Below are positions 1,234 to 17,230 of a DNA stretch of 18,166 nucleotides, in pieces; positions within the stretch are counted from its first letter, which is position 1; each line of letters starts with the position of its first letter. The stretch lies in assembly GCA_048939245.1 (NCBI GenBank), contig JBHLPR010000045.1, positions 1-18,166 of the forward strand, read 5' to 3'. The position numbers and the translations under genes were made by a program. The stretch comes from Promethearchaeota archaeon. GTDB taxonomy: Archaea > Asgardarchaeota > Hermodarchaeia > Hermodarchaeales > Hermodarchaeaceae. The notes under the pieces were generated by a model. The model searched no databases. It worked only from the letters and a program-made list of their open reading frames with translations, and had not been told where the DNA came from.

Positions 1234-1605
1234 CTATTCTATTAGTTCTTCATCTTCGGGACGCCAGTACGGGTCGACAATACAGAGGAATACGATGTCT
1301 TGGTTGCCAGTATTTTCCAGGTATTGCGTAGCCTTGGGAGGTACATAGACAAGTGAACCCGCTTCGACTTCACTTGATTCTTCATCAATATGCATAATCC
1401 CCGTTCCTTCCAGGAAATAGTAGACTTCGGAGGATTTCGTTAAGCGATGAGGAAGTGAAGCGTTTCTAGGGGGAACTTGTGCATGAGCGATACTATACCG
1501 CAGTTTTAATTTTGGTCCATCACGGAGCGGATTCAGTACTTCCCGAAGAATTGTTCCATCTAGTGCCGTGATGACTTTGCAGTCTGTGAGTTTTCGTACA
1601 AACAT
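1234..1605 (-). CDS. Cupin domain protein (RmlC-like, mannose-6-phosphate isomerase-like)
   Basis: Cupin motifs PHRLTKSSEVYYFLEGTG and GSLVYVPPKATQYLENTG. The likely start is ATG at 1605 (MFVRKL); the upstream extension to 1845 looks non-coding. Confidence 0.88.
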   Translation of the reverse strand: MFVRKLTDCKVITALDGTILREVLNPLRDGPKLKLRYSIAHAQVPPRNASLPHRLTKSSEVYYFLEGTGIMHIDEESSEVEAGSLVYVPPKATQYLENTGNQDIVFLCIVDPYWRPEDEELIE

Positions 1606-1881
1606 ACTATTCACACTCTGGTGTATTGCTGGTCGAGAGTGAATATAGTTAATCCTTTTGTTTACTTCTATCAATACGTAAATAGACGGAATTTGGCTCT
1701 TCCTTTTTTCATCAGGTGAAGTACTATTTTTAGAAGTGAATTGAATCCGAGAAGAAAAGGACATTAACGGATACAATAGCAGTTGAAGCAATCTCAATAG
1801 TCGAACGAGTAGGGATGGAATCACAGAAAGATTAAAGTCATTCATGGAAAGGCGAGGTCTAGAAACACTGGGGTCTGTGAC

Positions 1882-2430
1882 TTGGATAAGGCTGAAGCTG
1901 AGGCCGTTCTTCGAGAAATCGAGGCGTCAAATAATCACTATATCATTGGTCCCCAACGTGGTCATATTCTCGTACGGATTGCCAGTGAATTCCATCCACA
2001 ACGCATTCTTGAAATTGGGACAAATGTTGGCTACTCTACCATTCTCATGGGTAAGGAACTTCCGAAGCGGGCACGTATCACAACTATCGAAGTTAACCCT
2101 AAGTTTGCAGAACAAGCTAAACAGAATATTAAACGAGCAAATCTTGAACCCACAATCGAGGTACTAATTGGCGATGCGTTAGAAATCATTCCCACATTGA
2201 AAGAAGAATACGACTTTGTCTTCATTGATGCACTCAAAAGCCAATATTATGATTATCTGATGGCTCTCGAACCCCTCCTATTTCGGGGGAGCATGATCAT
2301 AGCTGATAACGTTGGGAAAAGCCATGAAAAAATGCAGAATTATCTGAAACATGTTCGTGACTCAGGCTTATACACGAGTCGCTTCATCATGGTGGGAGAT
2401 GACGGAGTAGAGTTAAGTATCCGTCGTTAG
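1882..2430 (+). CDS. Class I SAM-dependent O-methyltransferase (Methyltransf_3 / YrrM-like)
   Basis: ILEIGTNVGYS motif I, ITTIE, GDALE, YDFVFIDA and IIADNV motifs. TTG start. Confidence 0.92.
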   Translation: MDKAEAEAVLREIEASNNHYIIGPQRGHILVRIASEFHPQRILEIGTNVGYSTILMGKELPKRARITTIEVNPKFAEQAKQNIKRANLEPTIEVLIGDALEIIPTLKEEYDFVFIDALKSQYYDYLMALEPLLFRGSMIIADNVGKSHEKMQNYLKHVRDSGLYTSRFIMVGDDGVELSIRR

Positions 2431-2526
2431 TACTTACTCTATTCTCGTCTTCGTTTTTTAAGCAAGACAAAAAAACAAATAGCACTCAACATCAACATCC
2501 ACTGTCTATACATTGAGCTGGTTATT

Positions 2527-3594
2527 ATGGAAGCCTTTCTAAAGAAAAAAGCGGGGCCCGGCGTTGAACGAGCTACCGTAGACAAACCTAGTATTGGTGA
2601 CACTGATGTGTTGGTTGAAGTCAAAGGTGCTGCAATCTGCGGAACGGATGTGCATGTCTACGAATGGAATGATTGGGCTGCAAACCGGATTAAACCCCCT
2701 CTAATTGTCGGCCATGAAATGTCTGGAAAAGTCATTGAAGTTGGAGAAAAAGTTCATCATATAGCTGTTGGAGATATGGTGTCTGCTGAAACACATATTG
2801 TCGACCAAACTTGCCTTCAGTGTTTAACCGGCCGTGAACATGTATGCCAAAATATGACAATTCTTGGGGTGGATCGTGACGGGGTCTTTGCTGAGTATGT
2901 GTCGATTCCTGCTCATAATGCTTGGAAAAATGATCCCGAATTGGATCCCATTGTTGGAGCCATCCAGGAACCTTTAGGAAATGCAGTCCACACTCTTTTG
3001 CCAATTAATAATGTGGAAGATATTGCAGGACGAAATGTTGTAGTCGTTGGAATGGGTCCTATTGGATTAATGGCCGTAGCGGTTGCTAAGGAACTAGGCG
3101 CAGACAAAGTTTTTGCTACCGCTGGAGGACGAAATATAACCCGCATGAAACTTGCCAAAACCATGGGCGCCGATGAGGTATTCAGTGCCCGTGAACAGGG
3201 TCGAGAAGCCATCGTGAAAGCCATCCATGATGCCACCGATGGGAACGGGGCCGATGTAGCTGTTGAAATGAGTGGCCACCCCGATGGGCTCGTTACCGCT
3301 TTTGAAACATTGACGCCCGGTGGCCGCGTCAGTCTACTTGGCGTTTTCCCCAACCCCTTCGAAGTTGACCTAAATCGACTTATGATCTTTAAAGCCGCCA
3401 CCATCTATGGTATCAGTGGCCGTCTCATGTACCGAACGTGGTTCCAAGTCCGTGGTCTTCTACGCCGACCTCAGCTCCGTAAAAAAATCAGCCAGGTCGT
3501 AACTCATCGGTTACCAATTAAAGATCTCGAACAAGGGTTTAATCTGATCCTCTCCAAAAAAGCAGCGAAGGTCGGTTTGACACCCCAATGGTAA
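2527..3594 (+). CDS. tdh: L-threonine 3-dehydrogenase (Zn-dependent MDR family)
   Basis: ICGTDVHVYEWNDWA, GHEMSG, SAETHIV, QEPLGNAVHT, GMGPIG and GISGRLMYRTW match Tdh signatures; a kbl homolog lies nearby. Confidence 0.9.
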   Translation: MEAFLKKKAGPGVERATVDKPSIGDTDVLVEVKGAAICGTDVHVYEWNDWAANRIKPPLIVGHEMSGKVIEVGEKVHHIAVGDMVSAETHIVDQTCLQCLTGREHVCQNMTILGVDRDGVFAEYVSIPAHNAWKNDPELDPIVGAIQEPLGNAVHTLLPINNVEDIAGRNVVVVGMGPIGLMAVAVAKELGADKVFATAGGRNITRMKLAKTMGADEVFSAREQGREAIVKAIHDATDGNGADVAVEMSGHPDGLVTAFETLTPGGRVSLLGVFPNPFEVDLNRLMIFKAATIYGISGRLMYRTWFQVRGLLRRPQLRKKISQVVTHRLPIKDLEQGFNLILSKKAAKVGLTPQW

Positions 3595-3776
3595 CTGGCA
3601 TTTATTCCTGCTTATCTGGAAAGTAGAATTCACACCAACGGCATCGGTCTTCATCCGTGCATTTCCCAAGCGGTTTCTGGCTTTTAGGAGAGCAAGCAGA
3701 AGAAATTGTTTGTGACACAATTCTCCCTATTATTTTTGGTCTTCTTTAGTTTTCAACTTGAATGCGTATCAGTTCA

Positions 3777-4595
3777 TCACTCAAACTTCACAAAATGAAG
3801 TTGAGCGGTAATTTCAATTCTCTCTAAATCGTCCAGATCCTTGAATTGTGTGGTCGCTGCCGCACGCACATCTTGCATAATCTGTCGATGGACCACGTCA
3901 GGAAGATTGCGCCACATTGACGAGAAAACTCGTCGATCCAAATAGGATAGGGTCACACCTAATGGAACCTCAACGAATGTCTCGAAGTTATGCGTCTCCA
4001 CGCTAGCTCCCAGTCTCTGTAATTCCGCAATGACCTCATCTGGATCTGCACCCAATGAGGATACCCCATAACCAAGCTCTTTCCGTCGTTGTCTGTACAA
4101 TTTATTCAGATATGATTGATGAGTGATGGCTCCAACATAGCCAGTTATGATCGTTCCCTCCGAGCCTAGGATGTGACGGACTTCCTTCAACGCCTTAGAC
4201 CAATCAGTCATTAAATGAAACAAATGAATAGCCAGAACTGCTTTGAATATGCCACTACTAAGAGGTAACCTAGCGGCATCCCCAAAGACAAGATTGGAAC
4301 GAAGGAATTTTGAAGAACCTTGGTTGATGCAGGCTTGTTCTAGCATGCCTTGTGAAATATCAAAACCAATCACCTGTATTTTCTGACTAGCTAAGGCACG
4401 GAGAAACCGACCAGCACCGCAACCCAGTTCCAGTACAAGGTTTGAGGATATTAACTCGCATGTGTGAATAATGTCCCTAACAATTTCTTTCATGAATTCA
4501 TCTGGGATTCCACGAGTGACTTCATAATCCTCGGCAACACGTCCGAAATCGACGCGTGATGAGGAAGTTCCCGCTGGTTCACGCATACTCGTCAA
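3777..4595 (-). CDS. Class I SAM-dependent methyltransferase (UbiE / Methyltransf_11-like)
   Basis: VLELGCGAGRF, GFDISQGML, GDAARLPL and HLFHLMTDW motifs. The start may be ATG at 4586. Confidence 0.9.
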   Translation of the reverse strand: MTSMREPAGTSSSRVDFGRVAEDYEVTRGIPDEFMKEIVRDIIHTCELISSNLVLELGCGAGRFLRALASQKIQVIGFDISQGMLEQACINQGSSKFLRSNLVFGDAARLPLSSGIFKAVLAIHLFHLMTDWSKALKEVRHILGSEGTIITGYVGAITHQSYLNKLYRQRRKELGYGVSSLGADPDEVIAELQRLGASVETHNFETFVEVPLGVTLSYLDRRVFSSMWRNLPDVVHRQIMQDVRAAATTQFKDLDDLERIEITAQLHFVKFE

Positions 4596-4807
4596 AGAAA
4601 GAATTGGTTGAAAGGTCTAAAGCGTTATGCTCCTAACCTATTGGAGTTGTGAAATCTTGTTTTTCTCTCCACAAAATCATCCATTAGTCTGCCTCCTTGT
4701 CATCGTACTAAATATTAATCAAGCATACAGCTCTTCACTGATGGATGGGAGATGTGTTTTGAATAGCAGCGTCGTCAAGACACAAGTTTTCCTCATTCCG
4801 GTAACCA

Positions 4808-4843
4808 TTTAAAAGTCTCTAAGTAGATTTGCACCCACGGTGA
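4808..4843 (+). promoter_or_regulatory. Putative archaeal TATA box (TTTAAAA) and SD (GGTGA) of kbl
   Basis: TTTAAAAG at ~4808-4815 and GGTGA at 4839-4843, upstream of ATG 4852. Confidence 0.45.
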
Positions 4844-4851
4844 CTTAAACA

Positions 4852-6048
4852 ATGACTCGTGACCCAACTGCCTTTCTTAAACAGGAATATGAAGAGCTGG
4901 TCAAACAAGCCCTGGACTGGAGGCTCCGTGAGCTCCAAGGTCCCAGCTCTCCCAGGGCAATGGTGGATAACAAAGAAGTCATCATGCTCTGTAGTAACAA
5001 TTACCTCGGATTAAGCAACCACCCCAAACTCAAACAAGCGGCAATCGACGCTATCAAAACCCATGGGGTGGGAAGCGGCAGCGTTCGTCCTATTGCTGGT
5101 AACATGGATCTCCACGAAGAACTCGAACGCCGCCTTGCCCAATTCAAAGGTGCCGAAGCAAGCCTTGTGTATCAAACAGGCTTTGCTGCTAACGCGGGTC
5201 TCATTCCCCAACTCGCAGGAAAAGGGGATATCATTATCAGTGATGAACTCAACCATGGTTCTATCATTGATGGAGTCCGATTAACCCGGGCTGAACGGGC
5301 AATCTTCAAACACTGTAATGTCCCGGACCTTGGTCGTGTTCTTGAAGAAACGAAAAAACACAAGCCCGCTTATCGACGGATTCTCGTTATCACAGATGGT
5401 GTCTTCAGTATGGACGGAGACATTGCACCTTTAGGCCAAATCGTGAAAACATGTAAACCTCACGGCGCAATGGTCTATGTGGATGACGCCCACGGGGAAG
5501 CCGTACTTGGCGAAGGCGGTCGGGGTATTGTCTCTCACTTCAATCTTACACACAAAGATGTTCATGTCGAAATGGGAACCTTCAGTAAAGCCTTCGGGGT
5601 CGTCGGAGGACATGTCTCAGGCAGTGAATACCTCCGAAAATTCGCCTACAATAAATCCCGCACATGGCTTCTCAGTGGCTCACATCCCCCACCAGTAGCC
5701 GCAGCATGTATTGCAGCTATCGATATCTTAGAAAAAGAATCCCAACACGTCAAGAACCTCTGGAAAAACACCAACTACTTCAAGAAAGCACTCAATGACC
5801 TAGGATTCAACACTGGAATGAGTGAAACTCCAATCACCCCAGTGATCATCGGTGAAAGTGACAAAGCCCAAAAATTCAGCACACGGCTCTACGAAGAAGG
5901 GGTCTTCGCACTACCCATTGTCTACCCAATGGTCTCACGCGACACAGCTCGAATCCGTACAATTATGAATGCAGCGCTTAAAATGGAAGATCTCAACGAC
6001 GCCATTACAGCTTTTGACAAAGTTGGAAAAGAACTTAATGTCATTTAA
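4852..6048 (+). CDS. kbl: 2-amino-3-ketobutyrate CoA ligase (glycine C-acetyltransferase), PLP-dependent alpha-oxoamine synthase family
   Basis: CSNNYLGL, SDELNHGSIIDG, TDGVFSMDGD, VDDAHG, GTFSKAFG (PLP Lys) and ARIR motifs. Proximity to tdh favours Kbl over BioF. Confidence 0.88.
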   Translation: MTRDPTAFLKQEYEELVKQALDWRLRELQGPSSPRAMVDNKEVIMLCSNNYLGLSNHPKLKQAAIDAIKTHGVGSGSVRPIAGNMDLHEELERRLAQFKGAEASLVYQTGFAANAGLIPQLAGKGDIIISDELNHGSIIDGVRLTRAERAIFKHCNVPDLGRVLEETKKHKPAYRRILVITDGVFSMDGDIAPLGQIVKTCKPHGAMVYVDDAHGEAVLGEGGRGIVSHFNLTHKDVHVEMGTFSKAFGVVGGHVSGSEYLRKFAYNKSRTWLLSGSHPPPVAAACIAAIDILEKESQHVKNLWKNTNYFKKALNDLGFNTGMSETPITPVIIGESDKAQKFSTRLYEEGVFALPIVYPMVSRDTARIRTIMNAALKMEDLNDAITAFDKVGKELNVI

Positions 6049-6204
6049 TCAAAAACTAGTCAAGATTCTTTCAATCCGATTACTACAACAAGCGCAGAAT
6101 TGAACATCCTTTTCAATTTGTGCCCCACAAACTAGGCAATTTCGTGAACCTAGTGAATGTTCCAGGCTAGGGGTTCTTTGACAAAAGTCATTGCTTCCAA
6201 GCGA

Positions 6205-7536
6205 CTACAGCTTCATCATTTTACGCCGTCGATGAACAAGTAATCCCACTAAAACGAGTACAAGTATTCCGATGATGATTCCACCCGTGACGAGAATTAG
6301 CTGAGAGACTGGATCTAAAGAAAACGTTGGGGTAGAAAGAATCAATGCTGACAATATGTCCGATTGATATCCTGGTTTCTTAGTTGTATCAACCGGATTC
6401 CCATCTGCATCACATATAGCATAGAAGCCTACATTCGATGGATCGTAATGGTGGCTTCTAATGAATTCCACACAACCAAGATGCATCTCCCAATATGACA
6501 GGTTTTTTGTCAAGTGATATAGATCGAAAAATGCTTTCGCGGTATAAGCTAGATAAGCTGAGTTCCGATTAAAATCCTCTGGTTCGAGTTGGCGAGTTAC
6601 CCTTGTCATAAATCCGAGGTTAGCGTCTGTCCAGTAGCCCAAAAGATGATTAGCAATTTCCTTTGCATGGTTCCAATAAGTCATATTCAAAGTGAAGCGA
6701 TAACCTATGAGAAAGGCTTGAATCATCAACGATTGTGCGTGCAGGGGCTTAGTGCTATCGTATATTGCTCCAGAAGGTGTATATACTTGACAATAGCCGC
6801 CATAAGGTGAATCCCAATATACTCTTTGAGCAAAATTAAGGGCGTAGTTCAACTCTTCTAAAAAGGTAGTATTTGAGGGATCGATGCTGAGCAGTGCACC
6901 ACACGCCAAAGCAACAATCGGTGGTAGATAACCAAAGGGATAATAGATTAGATTTGGGTTTCCAAAGCCATCCACTTCAATATGATAACCACCATGATCT
7001 AAATTGTGATGGAAATCATGGATGAAGTACATGAGCCAAGCTGCAGTATCATAATAGGTTGTATTTCCTGTGTGTTTAAAGAGCTCAACAAGAGCACAGA
7101 TGAGGTGTGAATTGTCTGCAGTTCGTGAATTCCAGACAATTGCACTCGACCAATCTTCAACCATTCGTGCATTATAGGTGTGACTTGGATTTCGCATTTT
7201 TGCTTCGATAGTGTTGAAAGTTTCAATCGCATGATTTAGAGCAGATAAATCTCCTGTTGTGTAAAAATATCTCAAGCAACCTAATATGACGGCTGCCTCG
7301 ATTCCAAGGAACTTATTTCTTTGTATTGGGTTGCCAAACTGGTCCAATTCTTGATAATGACCACCATAATTGTAATCATAGCAGATTGTACTGATGAAAT
7401 TATATGCTGATGCAATACCTGCGTCAATTGATTGGAAACTTCGATGAGCCCTAGCCACTACTACCACTGGGCTGACTAGCAAAAATGATAGTAGCACAGT
7501 TATTAAACAACCCTCTACACGATTTCGACTATCCAT
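6205..7536 (-). CDS. Secreted, C-terminally membrane-anchored (alpha/alpha)6-barrel protein (AGE epimerase / GH76-like)
   Basis: Signal-like N-terminus (LITVLLSFLLVSPVVVVARA); repeated D-x-x-Y/H-G-G-Y...D-x-x-G loop motifs typical of AGE-family barrels; C-terminal TM helix plus basic tail HRRRKMMKL. The likely start is ATG at 7536. Confidence 0.75.
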   Translation of the reverse strand: MDSRNRVEGCLITVLLSFLLVSPVVVVARAHRSFQSIDAGIASAYNFISTICYDYNYGGHYQELDQFGNPIQRNKFLGIEAAVILGCLRYFYTTGDLSALNHAIETFNTIEAKMRNPSHTYNARMVEDWSSAIVWNSRTADNSHLICALVELFKHTGNTTYYDTAAWLMYFIHDFHHNLDHGGYHIEVDGFGNPNLIYYPFGYLPPIVALACGALLSIDPSNTTFLEELNYALNFAQRVYWDSPYGGYCQVYTPSGAIYDSTKPLHAQSLMIQAFLIGYRFTLNMTYWNHAKEIANHLLGYWTDANLGFMTRVTRQLEPEDFNRNSAYLAYTAKAFFDLYHLTKNLSYWEMHLGCVEFIRSHHYDPSNVGFYAICDADGNPVDTTKKPGYQSDILSALILSTPTFSLDPVSQLILVTGGIIIGILVLVLVGLLVHRRRKMMKL

Positions 7537-7743
7537 TCCACACAGCTCAAGGCCTGATGAATAGGATTCATCATCACACATGTTCCGCAATCGAAGGTTA
7601 AATCCTTTATCTAATGGAACTATACCTAGGAACTCAACGAAATCCTATTTTGGACGGTTTCGAAAGAAGATTAAAAACGGATGTCTGAGGAACACTAGAA
7701 ATCAAAGACATTGTTCTCTCTTACAAATCTGGTGGAATGAAAA

Positions 7744-8349
7744 ATGGCTGATTTCCAAAAGTACCACATCCAGCGGGGTCATGTAATCAGAGTCCCCGAT
7801 GATATGGCCAATGATTTTGGTGATGGTGACTGCTACCTCATTGATACTGGTCCCATCATTTACTTATGGTGTGGCAGTACGGCTACAGTTGACGAACGCT
7901 TTATCGGGGCAGTGACCTCGGTTTGGCGCGATCAGGAACGAAAAGGAGTCGCAAAACTAGTCACGGTTGAAGCTCAAAAAGAGCCTCCCGACTTCCTCGA
8001 GTTATTTGAGGGTAAAATCAAAATTACTGACCAAGACACAGAGGGTATTCTCAAAAAGGTCATATTGGAAAAACACGAATTCAAACTGTTCCGACTTAAC
8101 ATCGTGGGTGGCGTTCATTTGTTTATTGAAGTTCCGCGGAAAAAAGACAGTTTGAAATCCGACGATGTATACATCTTAGATACCTTTGATAAGATCTATC
8201 TTTGGCGGGGTAGTTCTTCAACTGGGCGTGAAAAGTTTCATGCCATGCTGATTGCCCGACGATATGACTATGAAAGAGCAGGGGCCCAACAAATCGTTCT
8301 CGTTGAAGAAGGAGAAGAAACCAAGGCGTTTCTTAACGCTCTCGAATGA
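7744..8349 (+). CDS. Two-domain gelsolin/villin-family actin regulator (Asgard 2DGel-like)
   Basis: Two gelsolin repeats: FGDGDCYLIDTGPIIYLWCGSTATVDER...EAQKEPPDFLELF and LKSDDVYILDTFDKIYLWRGSSSTGREK...EEGEETKAFLNAL. Confidence 0.92.
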   Translation: MADFQKYHIQRGHVIRVPDDMANDFGDGDCYLIDTGPIIYLWCGSTATVDERFIGAVTSVWRDQERKGVAKLVTVEAQKEPPDFLELFEGKIKITDQDTEGILKKVILEKHEFKLFRLNIVGGVHLFIEVPRKKDSLKSDDVYILDTFDKIYLWRGSSSTGREKFHAMLIARRYDYERAGAQQIVLVEEGEETKAFLNALE

Positions 8350-8780: not shown

Positions 8781-9191
8781 ATGACCACACCCACAGACCA
8801 ACTTGAAGGATTCGTTGCTGACGTTCTCATCCCTCGTATTGATGAGGTAGTGAACGCAGCAGCCAATGGTGTGGAAAATGAACAATTACGTGATCTCTTT
8901 TCAAACAATATCTCTGATGGAATGAAATTCTTCTATGAACGATGGACGCCTGTCTATCTTTCAATTCATGGCCAAAAAAAGACAACCCATACAAGCCGAA
9001 CACTTGACAAACTTTTTCAGGATGTCATTAAAACTCCTTTGAAAAACCTCCGCGAATCAATGGTCAAAGCGATCTGGTATCTGCTATCCATCAGCCTTGA
9101 GGACATGGACAACGTTCCGGTCTTTTCAGATGAACTCACATTTACGGAGCTTCACTCTGCAATTAAGAATGCTACTCGACGAATCTCTTAA
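8781..9191 (+). CDS. Hypothetical alpha-helical protein (136 aa)
   Basis: Clean ATG ORF with SD-like GGGGA upstream; amphipathic helical pattern; no family recognised. Confidence 0.75.
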   Translation: MTTPTDQLEGFVADVLIPRIDEVVNAAANGVENEQLRDLFSNNISDGMKFFYERWTPVYLSIHGQKKTTHTSRTLDKLFQDVIKTPLKNLRESMVKAIWYLLSISLEDMDNVPVFSDELTFTELHSAIKNATRRIS

Positions 9192-11321: not shown

Positions 11322-12293
11322 CTAATCGTTACGATGCGTTACCTGCAACTCTTCGATAGCTTTTCTTCGTTGACGTGGCTTCAAGGAATCAACATCACTA
11401 AAACGGCGCTCGATGACCGGGATAAGTCTCTCATCAATTTCATAGCCAATACTATTGCGGTGGGTCTTCCGTGCAGCTTTCATTGTCGTACCCGTTCCCA
11501 AAAAAGGATCGACCACCGTATCACCAATAACTGAAAACATTCGAATCAATCGATATGCGATTTCATCTGGAAACGCTGCACTTCGACGCGAGACCTGGCG
11601 GACCCTTTGCCGTGCTCCTGGCAGTTCCCATATCTGAGTAAACCAGGCATTCCGTTGGCTAATTGTATAATGACTGGCATATCGAATTAGGTCCTTAGGT
11701 GGGAACGGTCGAGGTTGCCCTTTTCGGAAGATAAGAATAAATTCGCAATCTTGAGTTACATATGCATTAGGTGGAATGAACCCAGACCCCAGAAAAGCAT
11801 TGGCTCGCTTTGTCGGTTTTTTCCACAAAATATATGGAAGCGTGGTAAATCCCACGGCTTCACATTGCTCGATCACCTTCACATGATTCGGATATAATTG
11901 AAAATTGTCATCAATTTTCCTTAGGGCATCACCGATATTGATACAGGCGATACCCCCTTCAACAAGGATACGGTAACACTCACTCCAAACCTGAGCAAGA
12001 TACACATGCATGGTATCAAAATCCGTGCATCCCATCCGTGAAAACAAGTCGTCCCATAACTCAATCATCGGGTACGGAGGAGACGTTACAATCAGATGCA
12101 CAGATTCGTTAGGTATCTCTTGCATCTGTCGACTGTCACCGATTATTAAGTGGTGATTGGTTCTCGGAATTTCCAGAGGACGCCCTTTGAGCATCTTTGC
12201 TAGTTGTCGTTCAGGATAAGATGTTGACTTTGCTTTCTTTTCCGGTTTTGTATCTTGTTTTTCTAATTCTGTACGCAAAGTCCGACCATCCAC
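11322..12293 (-). CDS. Site-specific DNA methyltransferase, beta class, N4-cytosine (M.MthZI / haloarchaeal Zim-like, probable CTAG specificity)
   Basis: Motif IV TSPPY precedes motif I DPFLGTGTT. Family-typical segments INIGDA, FQLYPNH, GSGFIPPNAYVT and AAFPDEIAYRLIRMFS. Start uncertain. Confidence 0.9.
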   Translation of the reverse strand: MDGRTLRTELEKQDTKPEKKAKSTSYPERQLAKMLKGRPLEIPRTNHHLIIGDSRQMQEIPNESVHLIVTSPPYPMIELWDDLFSRMGCTDFDTMHVYLAQVWSECYRILVEGGIACINIGDALRKIDDNFQLYPNHVKVIEQCEAVGFTTLPYILWKKPTKRANAFLGSGFIPPNAYVTQDCEFILIFRKGQPRPFPPKDLIRYASHYTISQRNAWFTQIWELPGARQRVRQVSRRSAAFPDEIAYRLIRMFSVIGDTVVDPFLGTGTTMKAARKTHRNSIGYEIDERLIPVIERRFSDVDSLKPRQRRKAIEELQVTHRND

Positions 12294-12351: not shown

Positions 12352-13086
12352 CTAGAGAGAAATGGCTATTCGTGCTGTATCTGAGCCAGTGAGCTCAACT
12401 ATTCCTTTGTTCTCCATCTCTTTGAGAACACGGGTGGTAATTGCAGGAGGCGATTTGGCCATGCGCTTTATCTCTGTTATGGGAACCTCTTTTTGATGAA
12501 TTAACAGCGCTAGAATGCCTAATTCAGGAGGCTCATGGGCTTCTGAAAGAAGGTAATCTGCGACAGGATTCTTCTTCTTTACTTCATTGACTTGTTTTTT
12601 CGCCACAGAGAGGGTCTCCTTTTGATTAGCCAGTTCCTGGTCCTTGCTAGCTTGGAGGCGACCGAGTTCTTTTTGTTTCTCCTCTAAGAGTGTGGTCTGT
12701 GACTCAAGGCGTGCTTTCCGTTGAGCTAAGTCGGCTTCAACGGTTTCCAATCTACCTGATTTTTCCATCAGGGTAGCTCTCAGAACTGCTATCTCCTTTT
12801 GAATCTCACCGAGTTCAGTATATAATCCAGCGATTTTCGCTTCCATAGCCGATCCGAATTCACGTAATTGGTTTAACTGTTCTTGGCTATGACTAATTGA
12901 CGCTTGTTGTTCATCCAATCGAGCATCAGATAATTGAAATTCACGCTCAATTCGGGATAGCGTTTGTAACGAACTCGTTACTTCCTTTACAATCATTGAC
13001 ATTTGATTTTGAAACACTTCGCCTAACTCTTTCATCCGCGCCTGATTGTGTTCAAGAACCTGTTGAAGTTGTTTAATCTCTGCCAT
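12352..13086 (-). CDS. Long coiled-coil protein with C-terminal winged helix-turn-helix (paralog B)
   Basis: ~175 aa heptad-rich, E/Q/K/L-rich region, then ILALLIHQKEVPITEIKRMAKSPPAITTRVLKEMENKGIVEL with a wHTH pattern. Strong SD GAGGTGA upstream. Confidence 0.85.
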   Translation of the reverse strand: MAEIKQLQQVLEHNQARMKELGEVFQNQMSMIVKEVTSSLQTLSRIEREFQLSDARLDEQQASISHSQEQLNQLREFGSAMEAKIAGLYTELGEIQKEIAVLRATLMEKSGRLETVEADLAQRKARLESQTTLLEEKQKELGRLQASKDQELANQKETLSVAKKQVNEVKKKNPVADYLLSEAHEPPELGILALLIHQKEVPITEIKRMAKSPPAITTRVLKEMENKGIVELTGSDTARIAISL

Positions 13087-13102
13087 CTCTTTTCACCTCT
13101 TA

Positions 13103-13858
13103 TCACAAATCAATTGGTTTGAGTACTTTCACTTGCCCCGTTCCTTTGTCCAAATTCACGATTTTGCGTTCTACCATCTGCTGAATAATCTCTCGCACTT
13201 TAAATCGCCCAATGAAGGTAGTCTTTTGTAAATGATCTAATGTTGTGGTTTCTTTGCCTTTGAGTTCTATAGCGACTTTAGCTTCAGGCATTGTGATAAC
13301 GCCCTGTTCTAACAGATATCGTAATGCTTTGTATTGAGCATCTTGAAGTTCTGCTTCATTACGAACTTCAGTAATTTGTTTATTTAGGGATTGTATCTTC
13401 TCGGCGATTCTTTCGTCAGAAGAACTGAGTTGCTCATCAGCCTTCTCCATATTCTTTGTCATCTCTCGAAGAGTCCGGTCAATATTGCGTATTTCATCTT
13501 CCATTGCCTCTAGCTTAGTTTCAGTAGCAGCCAACTCCTTCTGAAGTTTCTCCCGTTCCACTTTCGCTTCCCCTAAAACCTTCTGTTGTGCAACACTTGT
13601 TGATTCTAACTTACCTCGCTCCCGACTTTCAGCTGAAAGCTCACCTTCAAGGGCTGAGGATTCCCGAGTCATTTCTTCTTCTGTCACTTGTCGTTCTTCC
13701 CAGGTGTCTTGGAGATGCACCACCGTCTCTTGGAGTTGGGTAATTTGTGTAAGTATGGCGGATAATTCGCGTTGAGTGGAAACCGCTAATTCTTCTATGA
13801 CTGCACGATTTTTTTGTAATGATCCAATTAATGAAGAAATACCTGTCATCAGTTCCAT
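13103..13858 (-). CDS. Long coiled-coil protein with C-terminal winged helix-turn-helix (paralog A)
   Basis: ~185 aa proline-free heptad region, then TTLDHLQKTTFIGRFKVREIIQQMVERKIVNLDKGTGQVKV with a wHTH pattern. The start may be ATG at 13849. Confidence 0.85.
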   Translation of the reverse strand: MELMTGISSLIGSLQKNRAVIEELAVSTQRELSAILTQITQLQETVVHLQDTWEERQVTEEEMTRESSALEGELSAESRERGKLESTSVAQQKVLGEAKVEREKLQKELAATETKLEAMEDEIRNIDRTLREMTKNMEKADEQLSSSDERIAEKIQSLNKQITEVRNEAELQDAQYKALRYLLEQGVITMPEAKVAIELKGKETTTLDHLQKTTFIGRFKVREIIQQMVERKIVNLDKGTGQVKVLKPIDL

Positions 13859-13880
13859 CCATCCAGCATCGCGTATTGAC

Positions 13881-13887
13881 TATTTAA
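13881..13887 (-). promoter_or_regulatory. Putative TATA box (TTAAATA) of the coiled-coil operon
   Basis: Minus-strand TTAAATA about 23 nt upstream of ATG 13858, consistent with a leaderless or short-leader archaeal transcript. Confidence 0.5.
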
Positions 13888-14166
13888 GATATATCTGCAG
13901 CTAGTTCTAAAACCTTCATTTGTAGTGAATTCCCAAAAGGGTTTTGCCTATTGGTCTCAGTCCCAAGAGTCTACCTACTTTTCGCAATTCGTGATATCGA
14001 CAACCTGCCAGACCTAATGAATGGTTGCTTTCCAGTTCCATCGCCACGGTTATGACCAATGTTTCACTTTTTATTCGAGTTGACAACGTAGAGAATGAAA
14101 TCGATGCCTATCTTTCGAAGTCATCACCTTAAGCCTGCTCGCACACGACCTACTCTACATAATGCC

Positions 14167-14631
14167 CTAGTTTATGGGAACTGATTGTAAATATTCTAAA
14201 CGTCGTGAAAAGCTCCGTAACTCTTGTGTTAAATCTCTATGTAGTAACCGTGAGAGTGCATCAGAATCTCGTTGACGGGGAGGCTTCTGTTGTGAAAGTT
14301 TCTTGGCATCTAAAATCCGTTCTAAATATTTACACACAGCTAGTAGATGTCCCAGAATTTCTTTTGCAGCTAAGCACTCTTGAATCATCTCTGTGTTCTC
14401 AAAATTCGCCTTTCTGAGTTTTTTATTAAATTCTGATATGTGATCGTCAAAAATCTGATCAAATTGACCCTTTAATCGCAAGATTCCTTCTTCATTCATC
14501 GAATAGGACGTGGCTAGCACTTTTCGAAGCCAGGTGATCGCTTCTGGTAACTCCTCCGGCGTTTCTCTCTTGGCACTTCGCCGGATTGGTAATTTCTCCT
14601 TTTGTCGATTCTTTCGACTGGATTTACTCAT
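14167..14631 (-). CDS. Hypothetical basic, alpha-helical protein (~154 aa)
   Basis: ATG at 14631 preceded by GGGTG; K/R-rich N-terminal tail followed by amphipathic helices; no family recognised. Confidence 0.7.
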   Translation of the reverse strand: MSKSSRKNRQKEKLPIRRSAKRETPEELPEAITWLRKVLATSYSMNEEGILRLKGQFDQIFDDHISEFNKKLRKANFENTEMIQECLAAKEILGHLLAVCKYLERILDAKKLSQQKPPRQRDSDALSRLLHRDLTQELRSFSRRLEYLQSVPIN

Positions 14632-14751
14632 CGTGACACCCGCAATCTGAAGCCTAGTTCCTCTTCCACTATCGTGGAATAGTGCCTTCAAATAGTAGGC
14701 TTCGGTGGGCTATAATTATTCCGAAATTCATCAAAAATTAAATATCTCGAT

Positions 14752-16237: not shown

Positions 16238-17230
16238 CTATTCAGATAAAACCTGGCTGACACCTTTCTTGGCAATAAAAATCTCAAATTCACCTTCCCG
16301 AACATTTGATTCTGGGCTTCGACCGATAATAAGTTGGCCATTGAAAAGTGCAACATTCCGTATCGGTGGACCACCTTGTTCTAAATACAAGTCGAAAAAG
16401 AAGGGTAGAAACGCAAGTTCACTGTATTCATCTAGCAAGTGAGCTACAGTTTGGTGTTCAAGTTGGAGGAAACTGGTGATGATACGTCGGGATGTGACTG
16501 GCCCCTCAATATTCTCAAATTGGTACGGCACTTTTCCAAGTTCGACGAATTCCTGTGCCTGGATTGCTCCTTCTGACGGTAGTATTATGCGTCCATCTTC
16601 GAGAGTGAAAAAGGATGCACGCACTTCTTTTGCATCTTTCTTTTTACGATCCTTAGTTGGCTGGCCTGGTGCTGGTTTGGTTCGAAATAGCACTTCCTTA
16701 ATGGCTGGTCGAAGTTCCATCGGTATCTTGATCTGGGCAAGCAGTTCAGTAGCCGTGAGGGTTTGTTTTCCTTTCACAGTCTGACGTTGTAATATTAGTG
16801 GCTTATCACGAGTTGAAATACGGATCACGATGGTTCCAAATCGTCGCCGGATGATATCATCGACCGCTGAAATGTAGGGTTGAATCGCCTTCATGAATAG
16901 AGTAAGATTATCCTTGGGGTCATCCTTTGGGGGAAGGTTAAGTTGGTCATGGGTAATTACCAGGTAGCTATCGAGGATTCTCAATTCTTTGACATAGTAT
17001 AGATGATTTCCATAGGAAAAAGGGCCTTCCCGCTGCAAGAGCTTTGGATGGACTTTCACAGGTTCTGTAAAATTCACCTGGGTACCTGATGTTGTTGCAA
17101 TCGTCATTGCACAGTCGCGGTGCTTTGCAGCAAACTCATAACTTTTTGAAAAGACGTAATTGATAGGGAAAATTGATCTTGAAAGGACTTCAAGACGGTC
17201 GGAAATCACTCGGTCAATCGTTTCAGCCAT
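16238..17230 (-). CDS. Hypothetical protein (330 aa, alpha/beta)
   Basis: Long ATG ORF with SD-like GGGGA upstream; no family recognised. Confidence 0.8.
   Translation of the reverse strand: MAETIDRVISDRLEVLSRSIFPINYVFSKSYEFAAKHRDCAMTIATTSGTQVNFTEPVKVHPKLLQREGPFSYGNHLYYVKELRILDSYLVITHDQLNLPPKDDPKDNLTLFMKAIQPYISAVDDIIRRRFGTIVIRISTRDKPLILQRQTVKGKQTLTATELLAQIKIPMELRPAIKEVLFRTKPAPGQPTKDRKKKDAKEVRASFFTLEDGRIILPSEGAIQAQEFVELGKVPYQFENIEGPVTSRRIITSFLQLEHQTVAHLLDEYSELAFLPFFFDLYLEQGGPPIRNVALFNGQLIIGRSPESNVREGEFEIFIAKKGVSQVLSE

What the first reader, a model, noticed from the sequence alone, without database searches (positions are those of the whole stretch)
12352..13858. Operon of two paralogous, exactly length-matched coiled-coil + winged-helix proteins: candidate heterodimeric rod complex
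Seen: two co-oriented genes 16 nt apart, linked by a strong GAGGTGA SD, with their own TATA. Their N-termini align without gaps (MTGISSLIGSLQKNRAVIEEL vs MAEIKQLQQVLEHNQARMKEL). Both rods end in YLL-x(6-7)-PE followed by a ~60-aa wHTH-like head. The distance from the conserved N-terminal Asn to the YLL Tyr is 164 residues in both (17->181 and 14->178), despite low identity in between. Established: a buried Asn favours parallel, in-register dimers (as in GCN4), and 165 residues of coiled coil span about 24-25 nm. Inference: an obligate parallel heterodimer whose rod length is under selection and which presents two wH heads at one end. This architecture recalls eukaryotic paralog-pair rods (Hop2-Mnd1 with reversed polarity, Spc24/25, Ska1) and the C-terminal wH of CdvB. 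It could be an undescribed Asgard chromosome-tethering, cytoskeletal or division component.
Basis: partly seen in the sequence, partly recalled or inferred. Interest (0 to 1): 0.8.

Follow-up and report, generated by a model that had tools for sequence, protein, structure and literature searches.

The report
Asgard paired coiled-coil winged-helix rods
Two neighbouring genes in this Asgard archaeon are an ancient duplicated pair kept side by side across the phylum; each encodes a ~27-nm single-helix rod of almost invariant length that ends in a small DNA-regulator-type domain, and the two most likely zip into one two-headed rod whose cellular job is still unknown.

Summary
Genes A (13103-13849/13858, minus strand) and B (12352-13086, minus strand) lie 16 nt apart with a GAGGTGA ribosome-binding site. 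AlphaFold2 models each as one continuous helix (residues ~3-181) followed by a C-terminal winged helix.

A followed by B is conserved in all 38 pairs I collected from 10 divergent Asgard clades (Hod, Loki, Odin, Thor, Heimdall and Hermod labels). A and B each form one side of a branch, so the duplication is old.

The exceptions are single-heptad deletions that the partner does not mirror, so length is fixed rather than co-varying.

Heptad e/g charge pairing favours a parallel, in-register cognate A:B dimer (+5.5). A:A scores -2.9, B:B +1.5, non-cognate A:B -0.1, and shifted or antiparallel arrangements score about 0.

B's head is MarR/TrmB-type; A's head is divergent. No Hop2/Mnd1, Snf7/PspA or SMC-type (ATPase, hinge) Pfam family matched at E <= 1. 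I found no conserved neighbours, no fused forms and no published description.

Function remains inferred: a heterodimeric, probably DNA-binding, spacer or tether. This scan reached the same reading earlier on other Asgard genomes. I could not run a multimer prediction.

The parts
13103..13858 (-). Gene A: 248 aa from the conserved ATG at 13849 (251 aa from the upstream ATG at 13858); stop codon TGA at 13103-13105
   Evidence: gene callers and orthologues use the 248-aa form
13307..13843 (-). A rod: one continuous helix, residues 3-181 (248-aa numbering). Canonical two-stranded heptad pattern with register breaks near residues 27-29 and 145-151.
   Evidence: AF2 pLDDT 86-97 over the rod; heptad analysis
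13106..13288 (-). A head: divergent winged helix (H-S-H-H-S-S), residues 188-248
   Evidence: VIA-align Z 8-10 to many wHTH proteins. Only 2/18 family members reach MarR_2 at E<=0.01.
13093..13099 (-). GAGGTGA Shine-Dalgarno for B inside the 16-nt A-B spacer (13087-13102)
12352..13086 (-). Gene B: 244 aa, stop codon TAG at 12352-12354
12544..13083 (-). B rod: one helix, residues 2-181 (DSSP breaks it at residue 173), same heptad register and same two register breaks as A
12355..12531 (-). B head: MarR/TrmB-type winged helix, residues 186-244
   Evidence: Pfam MarR 26.9 bits, above the 24.6 cutoff. MarR in 14/19 family members. Foldseek hits to MarR, TrmBL2 and ArsR.
13930..13946 (-). Conserved upstream element CAAAACCCTTTTGGGAA, about 83 nt before the ATG of A; candidate operator or promoter element (genus-specific)
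13881..13887 (-). TTAAATA TATA-like box about 35 nt upstream of the 13849 ATG (not conserved in relatives)

Best explanation
A and B are the two subunits of one complex. Their ~180-residue helices zip into a parallel, in-register, two-stranded heterodimeric coiled coil. At ~0.148 nm per residue (established coiled-coil geometry) the rod is about 27 nm long.

This places two non-identical winged-helix heads side by side at the C-terminal end: a canonical MarR/TrmB-type head from B and a divergent one from A. The conserved N-terminal tips sit at the other end.

I infer that the paired heads bind DNA as an asymmetric wHTH pair, as dimeric wHTH regulators do. I also infer that the rigid, length-invariant rod acts as a spacer or tether holding whatever binds the N-terminal tip at a fixed distance. 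That makes it an architectural nucleoid-associated or chromosome-tethering factor rather than a ligand-sensing repressor.

Shown: gene pairing, paralogy, fold, length invariance. Supported indirectly: heterodimer, parallel in-register pairing. Inferred only: DNA binding and the spacer or tether role.
For: - Pairing: A then B were adjacent in all 38 pairs taken from 10 clades, and each of the other three family genes found lay next to a contig end. The phylum scan shows strong full-length hits in many families.
- Coupling: spacers of 0-30 nt or overlapping stop/start codons, and a strong Shine-Dalgarno before B.
- Age: A and B each form one side of a branch (SH-aLRT 93), so the duplication is ancient.
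- Fold: AF2 gives one helix over residues 3-181 plus a wH in both proteins, pLDDT 87-88.
- Strandedness: a/d positions are 62-74% hydrophobic and e/g about 10% hydrophobic and 50-59% charged, the two-stranded pattern.
- Shared register: A and B have the same heptad register and the same two register breaks.
- Charge pairing: the g-e' score at clade level is +5.45 for cognate A:B, -2.9 for A:A, +1.5 for B:B and -0.1 (sd 2.9) for non-cognate A:B. Register shifts give -1.6 to +2.7. Delta is positive in 8/10 clades, Wilcoxon p = 0.006. Antiparallel arrangements score <= 1.9.
- Asymmetric core layers: at positions 53/57, A has K/R and E where B is hydrophobic. At position 173, A has Y/H/F where B has N/E/S.
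- Length: 164 residues in 32/38 A and 30/38 B.
- Heads: B carries the MarR Pfam domain and the PP....R....L/M E.KGI recognition-helix motif.
Against: - No multimer model or experiment exists. The e/g score is crude and its register comes from the same alignments.
- A +7 register shift also scores mildly positive (+2.7).
- Two of ten clades have negative delta.
- One-heptad deletions are not mirrored in the partner, and a secondary pair has a much shorter B rod.
- The wH heads are not basic: mean net charge +0.8 for A and -1.1 for B. The whole proteins are acidic in nine of ten clade representatives (pI about 5-6), which is weak for DNA binding. wH domains can also mediate protein contacts, as in ESCRT-II and CdvB.
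- B:B pairing is not disfavoured.
- No conserved neighbour or fusion points to DNA or any other partner.
Confidence: 0.5

Rival explanations
1. The rod is a heterodimer as above, but the winged-helix heads are protein-binding modules rather than DNA binders. The complex would then be a structural linker or ruler of the Asgard cell, for example cytoskeleton-, membrane- or division-associated.
For: The heads are near-neutral and the proteins mostly acidic. A's head has lost most regulator-family sequence signal. wH folds used for protein contacts (ESCRT-II 3cuq, cohesin Scc1 WHD, PCI) score as well as the DNA binders. Strict length conservation suits a ruler.
Against: B's head keeps a canonical MarR/TrmB recognition-helix motif and passes Pfam's cutoff. 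There is no genomic linkage to cytoskeletal, ESCRT or division genes beyond this contig's unrelated gelsolin gene. The rods show no tropomyosin-like long period.
Confidence: 0.22
2. A and B are two separate homodimeric coiled-coil wHTH transcription regulators that are merely co-transcribed. One or both may autoregulate through the conserved upstream element.
For: B:B e/g score is slightly favourable at +1.5. Singleton relatives with the same architecture exist and presumably self-associate. MarR-type heads normally act as homodimers. A genus-conserved, locus-unique 17-20-nt element lies upstream of A.
Against: A:A pairing is electrostatically unfavourable, and A has charged core layers that B fills with hydrophobics. 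Cognate A:B complementarity exceeds non-cognate. Strict adjacency and order have been kept since before Asgard diversification, and both rods keep the same invariant length. None of this is expected for independent regulators.
Confidence: 0.15
3. The pair is an Asgard counterpart (analogue or remote relative) of eukaryotic Hop2-Mnd1, a recombination cofactor acting on RadA filaments.
For: Both are paralogous pairs of similar size forming a rod with two juxtaposed winged helices at one end (Hop2-Mnd1 structure, PMC4402518). The Hop2 wH (2mh2) appears among the fold matches at Z 8.3.
Against: The domain order is reversed: the wH is C-terminal here and N-terminal in Hop2/Mnd1. The rod is one long helix (DSSP breaks B's at residue 173) rather than three zippers with kinks. 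No TBPIP or Mnd1 Pfam signal at E<=1 for A or B, and neither is in the family-wide lists. No Hop2 or Mnd1 appears among the 60 best PDB profile matches shown. The Hop2 wH match is tied with dozens of unrelated wH domains. No linkage to radA.
Confidence: 0.04
4. They are ESCRT-III/PspA-like or CdvB-like membrane remodellers with a C-terminal winged helix.
For: Size (~245 aa), an all-helical body and a C-terminal wH resemble CdvB. Asgards have rich ESCRT systems (PMC10936438).
Against: No Snf7 or PspA_IM30 match at E<=1. AF2 gives a single helix with no alpha1-alpha2 hairpin at pLDDT >90. The heptad pattern is that of a two-stranded coiled coil. The pair is not in ESCRT loci, and I found no description of it in the passages on coiled coils and winged helices of the ESCRT survey.
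Confidence: 0.02

Closest known systems
Hop2-Mnd1 (eukaryotic meiotic recombination cofactor; PMC4402518)
   Same: Two paralogous subunits of ~200-250 aa form a parallel rod with two juxtaposed winged-helix domains at one end and a distinct tip at the other.
   Different: The wH is N-terminal there and C-terminal here. That rod is three short zippers with kinks; this one is a continuous ~180-residue helix. No sequence or profile signal links them. The function here is unknown.
MarR/TrmB-family wHTH regulators (Pfam PF01047, PF12802, PF01978)
   Same: B's head matches MarR above Pfam's threshold. Both heads have the H-S-H-H-S-S winged-helix topology and superpose on MarR, ArsR and TrmBL2 structures.
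   Different: Canonical MarR proteins are ~140-150-aa homodimers whose wHTH is flanked by short dimerisation helices and a ligand pocket. Here the wH is a C-terminal appendage on a 27-nm coiled coil. Two diverged paralogues are paired, and A's head has largely lost the family signal.
Sso10a / TrmBL2 (archaeal chromatin proteins that combine a winged helix with a coiled coil)
   Same: Archaeal DNA-architectural proteins built from a wH plus a coiled-coil dimerisation element. Sso10a-2 and TrmBL2 appear among the fold matches.
   Different: Both have an N-terminal wH. They are homo-oligomers, and Sso10a has a short antiparallel coiled coil that puts the heads at opposite ends (from my own knowledge of the published structures). 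Antiparallel pairing is not supported here.
E2F-DP heterodimer
   Same: Paralogous subunits heterodimerise through a coiled coil and jointly present two winged helices to DNA (my own knowledge of the family).
   Different: The wH is N-terminal and the coiled coil short. No sequence relation was detected.
Generic two-stranded rods (myosin II tail, tropomyosin, crescentin, SMC arms)
   Same: Best sequence-profile matches in the PDB. This reflects the same canonical heptad composition.
   Different: The similarity is compositional only. There is no ATPase head or hinge and no ~39-residue actin-binding period. The JGI label 'chromosome segregation ATPase' is a coiled-coil artefact.

Membership tests
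MarR family (Pfam PF01047), domain level | wHTH domain scoring above Pfam's gathering threshold | tested here: met
   B scores 26.9 bits against a 24.6 cutoff, residues 186-231, and 14/19 B-family members match. A is not met: best hits are TrmB at 12.7 bits and MarR_2 in 2/18 members.
MarR family, whole-protein architecture | A protein of ~140-150 aa with the wHTH flanked by N- and C-terminal dimerisation helices, forming a homodimer | tested here: not met
   The wH is C-terminal after a 180-residue single helix, with nothing after the wing. Two diverged paralogues are paired.
Hop2-Mnd1 | Sequence membership in TBPIP/Hop2 or Mnd1 families | tested here: not met
   No such Pfam hit at E<=1 for A or B, none in the family-wide lists, and no Hop2/Mnd1 chain among the 60 best PDB profile matches shown.
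Hop2-Mnd1 | N-terminal WHD followed by three leucine zippers with kinked junctions | tested here: not met
   The order is reversed and the helix is continuous, compared with the description in PMC4402518.
Hop2-Mnd1 | Parallel heterodimer of paralogues with juxtaposed WHDs | tested here: inconclusive
   e/g charge and core-layer analysis favour a parallel in-register A:B dimer. No multimer model or experiment.
ESCRT-III / CdvB / PspA | Snf7 or PspA_IM30 profile match and an alpha1-alpha2 helical hairpin | tested here: not met
   No profile hit at E<=1. AF2 gives a single helix with no hairpin, pLDDT >90.
SMC / Rad50 ('chromosome segregation ATPase' label from JGI) | ABC-type ATPase head (Walker A/B) and a hinge or hook interrupting an antiparallel coiled-coil arm | tested here: not met
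   The proteins are 244-248 aa with only a helix and a wH. No SMC_N, AAA or hinge Pfam match. PADLOC JetC/LmuB hits are weak coiled-coil matches.
Tropomyosin-like filament-binding ruler | Long-range quasi-repeat (~39 residues) of surface or core features along a fixed-length coiled coil | tested here: not met
   Fourier analysis of charge, hydrophobic and small-residue profiles found nothing near 39 residues. Nine of ten profiles stayed below the 95% heptad-shuffle null, and the one just above it was B small residues at period 12.
Asgard A/B rod pair (unnamed family defined here) | A then B adjacent; each ~245 aa; 164-residue spacing from the N-terminal core layer to the [YF]LL junction; C-terminal wH | tested here: met
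   The window pair meets all criteria.

The most novel reading that the evidence does not exclude
The pair is an Asgard-specific obligate heterodimeric molecular ruler. Its twin winged-helix heads would hold chromosomal DNA, and its conserved N-terminal tip would dock on another cell structure (membrane, lokiactin cytoskeleton or division machinery) at a fixed ~27-nm distance. This would be a prokaryotic forerunner in principle of eukaryotic paralogue-pair rod tethers such as Ndc80/Nuf2, Spc24/25 and Hop2-Mnd1.
Probability: 0.12. Interest if true: 0.9.

Novelty: new variant of a known kind. Interest (0 to 1): 0.62.

Why it matters
Asgard archaea are the closest known relatives of eukaryotes, and most of their conserved lineage-specific proteins are uncharacterised.

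This pair has been kept as an adjacent unit across every major Asgard group sampled. Its rod length is held at 164 residues in most members (at most one heptad shorter, or one residue longer) while the sequence drifted to ~20% identity. That implies a precise structural role, a ruler, spacer or tether, rather than a dispensable regulator.

Paralogous coiled-coil heterodimers with small globular heads are a hallmark of eukaryotic chromosome machines. An independent or ancestral example in Asgards would bear on how such machines arose.

The pair is small and soluble-looking. Lokiarchaeota-labelled genomes carry it, so the hypothesis can be tested directly by co-expression, EM, EMSA and localisation.

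Tried and rejected
- **Hop2/Mnd1, ESCRT-III/PspA and SMC membership:** no profile signal and the wrong topology.
- **Specific kinship of the heads:** Foldseek and VIA-align give only generic wHTH matches, all tied at Z 8-10 (SelB, MarR, CRP, ArsR, Z-alpha, ESCRT-II, Scc1, Sso10a, Hop2).
- **Fused or longer forms that might reveal a partner domain:** only generic giant coiled-coil proteins were found.
- **Conserved gene neighbours across clades:** none beyond the pair itself. The downstream N6_N4 methyltransferase and the upstream 174-aa ORF are linked only within this family or genus.
- **Defence-system membership (PADLOC):** only weak coiled-coil matches to JetC/LmuB.
- **Antiparallel pairing and register-shifted pairing:** not supported by charge scores.
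- **Tropomyosin-like long periodicity:** none.
- **Co-variation of rod length between partners:** not found. Length is essentially invariant and the rare heptad indels are one-sided.
- **Conservation of the upstream 17-nt element outside the genus:** absent.
- **The search for related loci on genome contigs:** failed twice because no 7-10-column stretch is conserved enough.
- **Literature:** two full-text searches and the ESCRT survey gave no description of this family.
- **Multimer prediction:** not possible with the tools, and I did not try to force a fusion.
Full report
**What is at the coordinates**

The window is a whole 18,166-bp contig (C37) of a 2.52-Mb, 88%-complete Asgard MAG. Source labels of close homologues read Hodarchaeota and Promethearchaeota.

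On the minus strand lie gene A (13103-13858, 251 aa) and gene B (12352-13086, 244 aa). Orthologues and public gene calls start A at the second ATG (13849), giving 248 aa.

The spacer is 16 nt. It carries GAGGTGA six bases before the ATG of B. With the 248-aa numbering, A and B align from residue 1 with no offset. Asn14 and the Tyr178 of a [YF]LL junction fall at the same positions in both, 164 residues apart.

**Fold**

AlphaFold2, run with alignments of 18-19 diverse orthologues, models each protein as one helix from residue 2-3 to 181 (unbroken in A; DSSP breaks B's at residue 173). Block pLDDT over the rod is 82-98 in B to residue 170 and 86-97 in A from residue 21. A canonical winged helix (H-S-H-H-S-S) follows, with pLDDT 65-76 in B and 78-85 in A.

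B's head passes Pfam's MarR threshold (26.9 bits against 24.6). MarR, MarR_2 or TrmB is found in 11-14 of 19 B-family members. A's head is divergent: only 2 of 18 members reach MarR_2.

Structure searches match only the heads, and only generically. MarR, ArsR, CRP, SelB, Z-alpha, ESCRT-II, Scc1, Sso10a-2 and the Hop2 wH all tie at Z 8-10. Sequence profiles against PDB chains return only generic two-stranded rods such as myosin II, tropomyosin, crescentin and SMC arms.

**Conservation of the pair**

- B-like genes occur in 13/14 same-genus genomes, and in more distant genomes of the phylum.
- In every locus where the contig allows, an A-type gene lies immediately upstream of a B-type gene on the same strand. 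The spacer is 0-30 nt or the stop and start codons overlap.
- I collected 38 such pairs falling into 10 clades (<40% identity between clades).
- Two same-genus genomes carry a tandem A'-B'-A-B array, and two closed genomes carry two pairs at separate loci.
- A phylum-wide profile scan matched 212/251 genomes at E <= 1e-4. Strong full-length hits, all in open frames of about 245-290 aa, occur in many families.
- Named members come from Odinarchaeum LCB_4, Thor-, Heimdall-, Hermod-, Hod- and Lokiarchaeota. All are annotated 'hypothetical', or mislabelled 'chromosome segregation ATPase'.
- A maximum-likelihood tree puts A, B and a third clade C each on one side of a branch (SH-aLRT 93, 93, 100). 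The A/B duplication therefore predates the sampled Asgard radiation.
- Clade C consists of singletons with shorter, variable rods (200-248 aa). One lies in this genome on contig C33, and in the three genomes of the large family f6 that I examined it was the only form found.
- No other gene is conserved next to the pair across clades, and no fused form was found.

**Rod length**

The spacing between the column of Asn14 and the [YF]LL tyrosine is 164 residues in 32/38 A proteins and 30/38 B proteins, and 165 in seven more B proteins. Identity between clades is about 20%.

The exceptions are mainly one heptad: -7 in A of three f4 genomes while B stays at 164, and -7 in B of G032 while A stays at 164. 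Three other A proteins are 1 or 5 residues short. Length is under strong stabilising selection and is changed in phase-preserving steps. It does not co-vary between partners. A secondary pair in one Loki-family genome has a B rod about 55 residues shorter plus a long acidic tail.

**Heterodimer test**

No multimer tool was available, so I used coiled-coil rules.

- Family hydrophobicity profiles give the same heptad register in A and B. Both show the same two register breaks, near residues 27-29 and 145-151.
- In the main segment, a/d positions are 62-74% hydrophobic. Positions e/g are about 10% hydrophobic and 50-59% charged. This is the two-stranded pattern.
- I scored g-to-e' charge pairs for a parallel in-register dimer and averaged over the 10 clades:

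| Pairing | Score |
|---|---|
| Cognate A:B | +5.45 |
| A:A | -2.9 |
| B:B | +1.5 |
| Non-cognate A:B | -0.1 (sd 2.9) |
| Shifts of one to three heptads | -1.6 to +2.7 |

- The heterodimer advantage is positive in 8/10 clades (one-sided Wilcoxon p = 0.006).
- Antiparallel arrangements at all compatible offsets score 1.9 or less, and -1.0 at full overlap.
- Core layers are asymmetric in a conserved way. At positions 53 and 57, A carries K/R and E where B is hydrophobic. At position 173, A carries Y/H/F where B carries N/E/S.

These results favour a parallel in-register A:B heterodimer. They are crude and indirect, because the register comes from the same alignments and the scoring is ±1.

**Function**

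The heads are not basic (mean net charge +0.8 for A and -1.1 for B). The rods are acidic in most clades, so DNA binding is plausible from B's canonical recognition-helix motif but not assured. Conservation is slightly higher at the junction and heads than along the rod. Together with the invariant length, this fits a spacer whose ends carry the specific contacts.

PADLOC gives nothing real. The rods lack any tropomyosin-like long period. Searches of the literature, including the 2024 ESCRT survey, found no description of this family.

My best reading is a heterodimeric two-headed rod that binds DNA through its paired heads and acts as an architectural spacer or tether. Confidence is about 0.5 for the whole statement and higher for the heterodimeric rod alone.

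The main rivals are:
- the same rod with protein-binding heads;
- two independent homodimeric regulators;
- far behind, a Hop2-Mnd1-like (PMC4402518) or ESCRT-III-like role. Both fail tested defining features.

**Relation to earlier scan notes**

After forming this reading I found that the scan had flagged the same family in other genomes. Three follow-ups reached the same conclusion. I re-derived the pairing, distribution, fold and the ESCRT-III/Hop2 exclusions independently.

So far as the short notes show, this report adds:
- the 38-pair length statistics;
- the one-sided heptad indels;
- the e/g and core-layer heterodimer tests with controls;
- the antiparallel test;
- the A/B/C tree;
- the genus-specific upstream element.

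**Verdict**

This is a real, conserved, unnamed pan-Asgard two-gene module. It is built from known kinds of parts in an arrangement with no characterised equivalent. Its mechanism is inferred and its function unknown.

Noticed in passing
window 13927-13949 (-), core 13930-13946: A ~20-nt block (GCAAAACCCTTTTGGGAATTC) about 83 nt upstream of gene A. It is conserved in 11 same-genus loci although the rest of the intergenic region is not. The exact copy is unique in this genome, and the block is absent upstream of A in other clades. Candidate operator or promoter element.
   Followed up: partly
G000 contig C33, L032:1489-2091 (-): A 200-aa singleton with the same architecture (shorter coiled coil plus C-terminal wH). 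It belongs to a third clade of singletons with variable rod length that is also the only form found in the three genomes examined of the large Asgard family f6. The protein atlas points to a Bathyarchaeota look-alike cluster (score 0.91, a lead only).
   Followed up: partly
L045 (G185:C16) 1820-4036 (+): A variant secondary pair in a Loki-family genome. The A-like protein is normal at 249 aa. The B-like protein is 488 aa: its rod is about 55 residues shorter, and a long acidic Pro/Glu-rich tail and a small helical end follow the wH.
   Followed up: partly
L014 (G007:C8) 1468-4591 and L015 (G011:C27) 4563-7688: Two same-genus genomes carry a tandem A'-B'-A-B array. The extra pair groups with the pairs of the sister genus. 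This genome lacks it at the same site (a ~300-nt intergenic gap at 13859-14166).
   Followed up: partly
window 11322-12293 (-): A DNA methyltransferase (Pfam N6_N4_Mtase, E = 5e-40; PADLOC Type II MTase, E = 2.5e-106) starts 58 nt downstream of B, with its own AT-rich TATA-like stretch. The adjacency is kept in two same-genus genomes and loosens to about 4 kb in the sister genus. No restriction enzyme was noticed nearby.
   Followed up: partly
window 14167-14691 (-): A 174-aa Lys/Arg-rich helical ORF upstream of the pair with no Pfam or PADLOC match. It is conserved next to the pair only within the genus.
   Followed up: partly
window 7744-8349 (+): A 201-aa protein with two gelsolin repeats (Pfam Gelsolin, E = 2.5e-27), a known Asgard eukaryotic-signature protein. 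It is unrelated to the finding.
   Followed up: no
window 16238-17230 (-) and 8781-9191 (+): ORFs of 330 aa and 136 aa with no Pfam family at E<=0.01.
   Followed up: no
P0276 (L047, G161) and P0316 (G032 contig): NCBI labels two members 'Nanopelagicaceae bacterium' and 'Methanobacteriota archaeon', although the genomes sit in the Asgard phylum in the genome collection used here. These are probably mislabelled MAGs, not evidence of spread outside Asgards.
   Followed up: no
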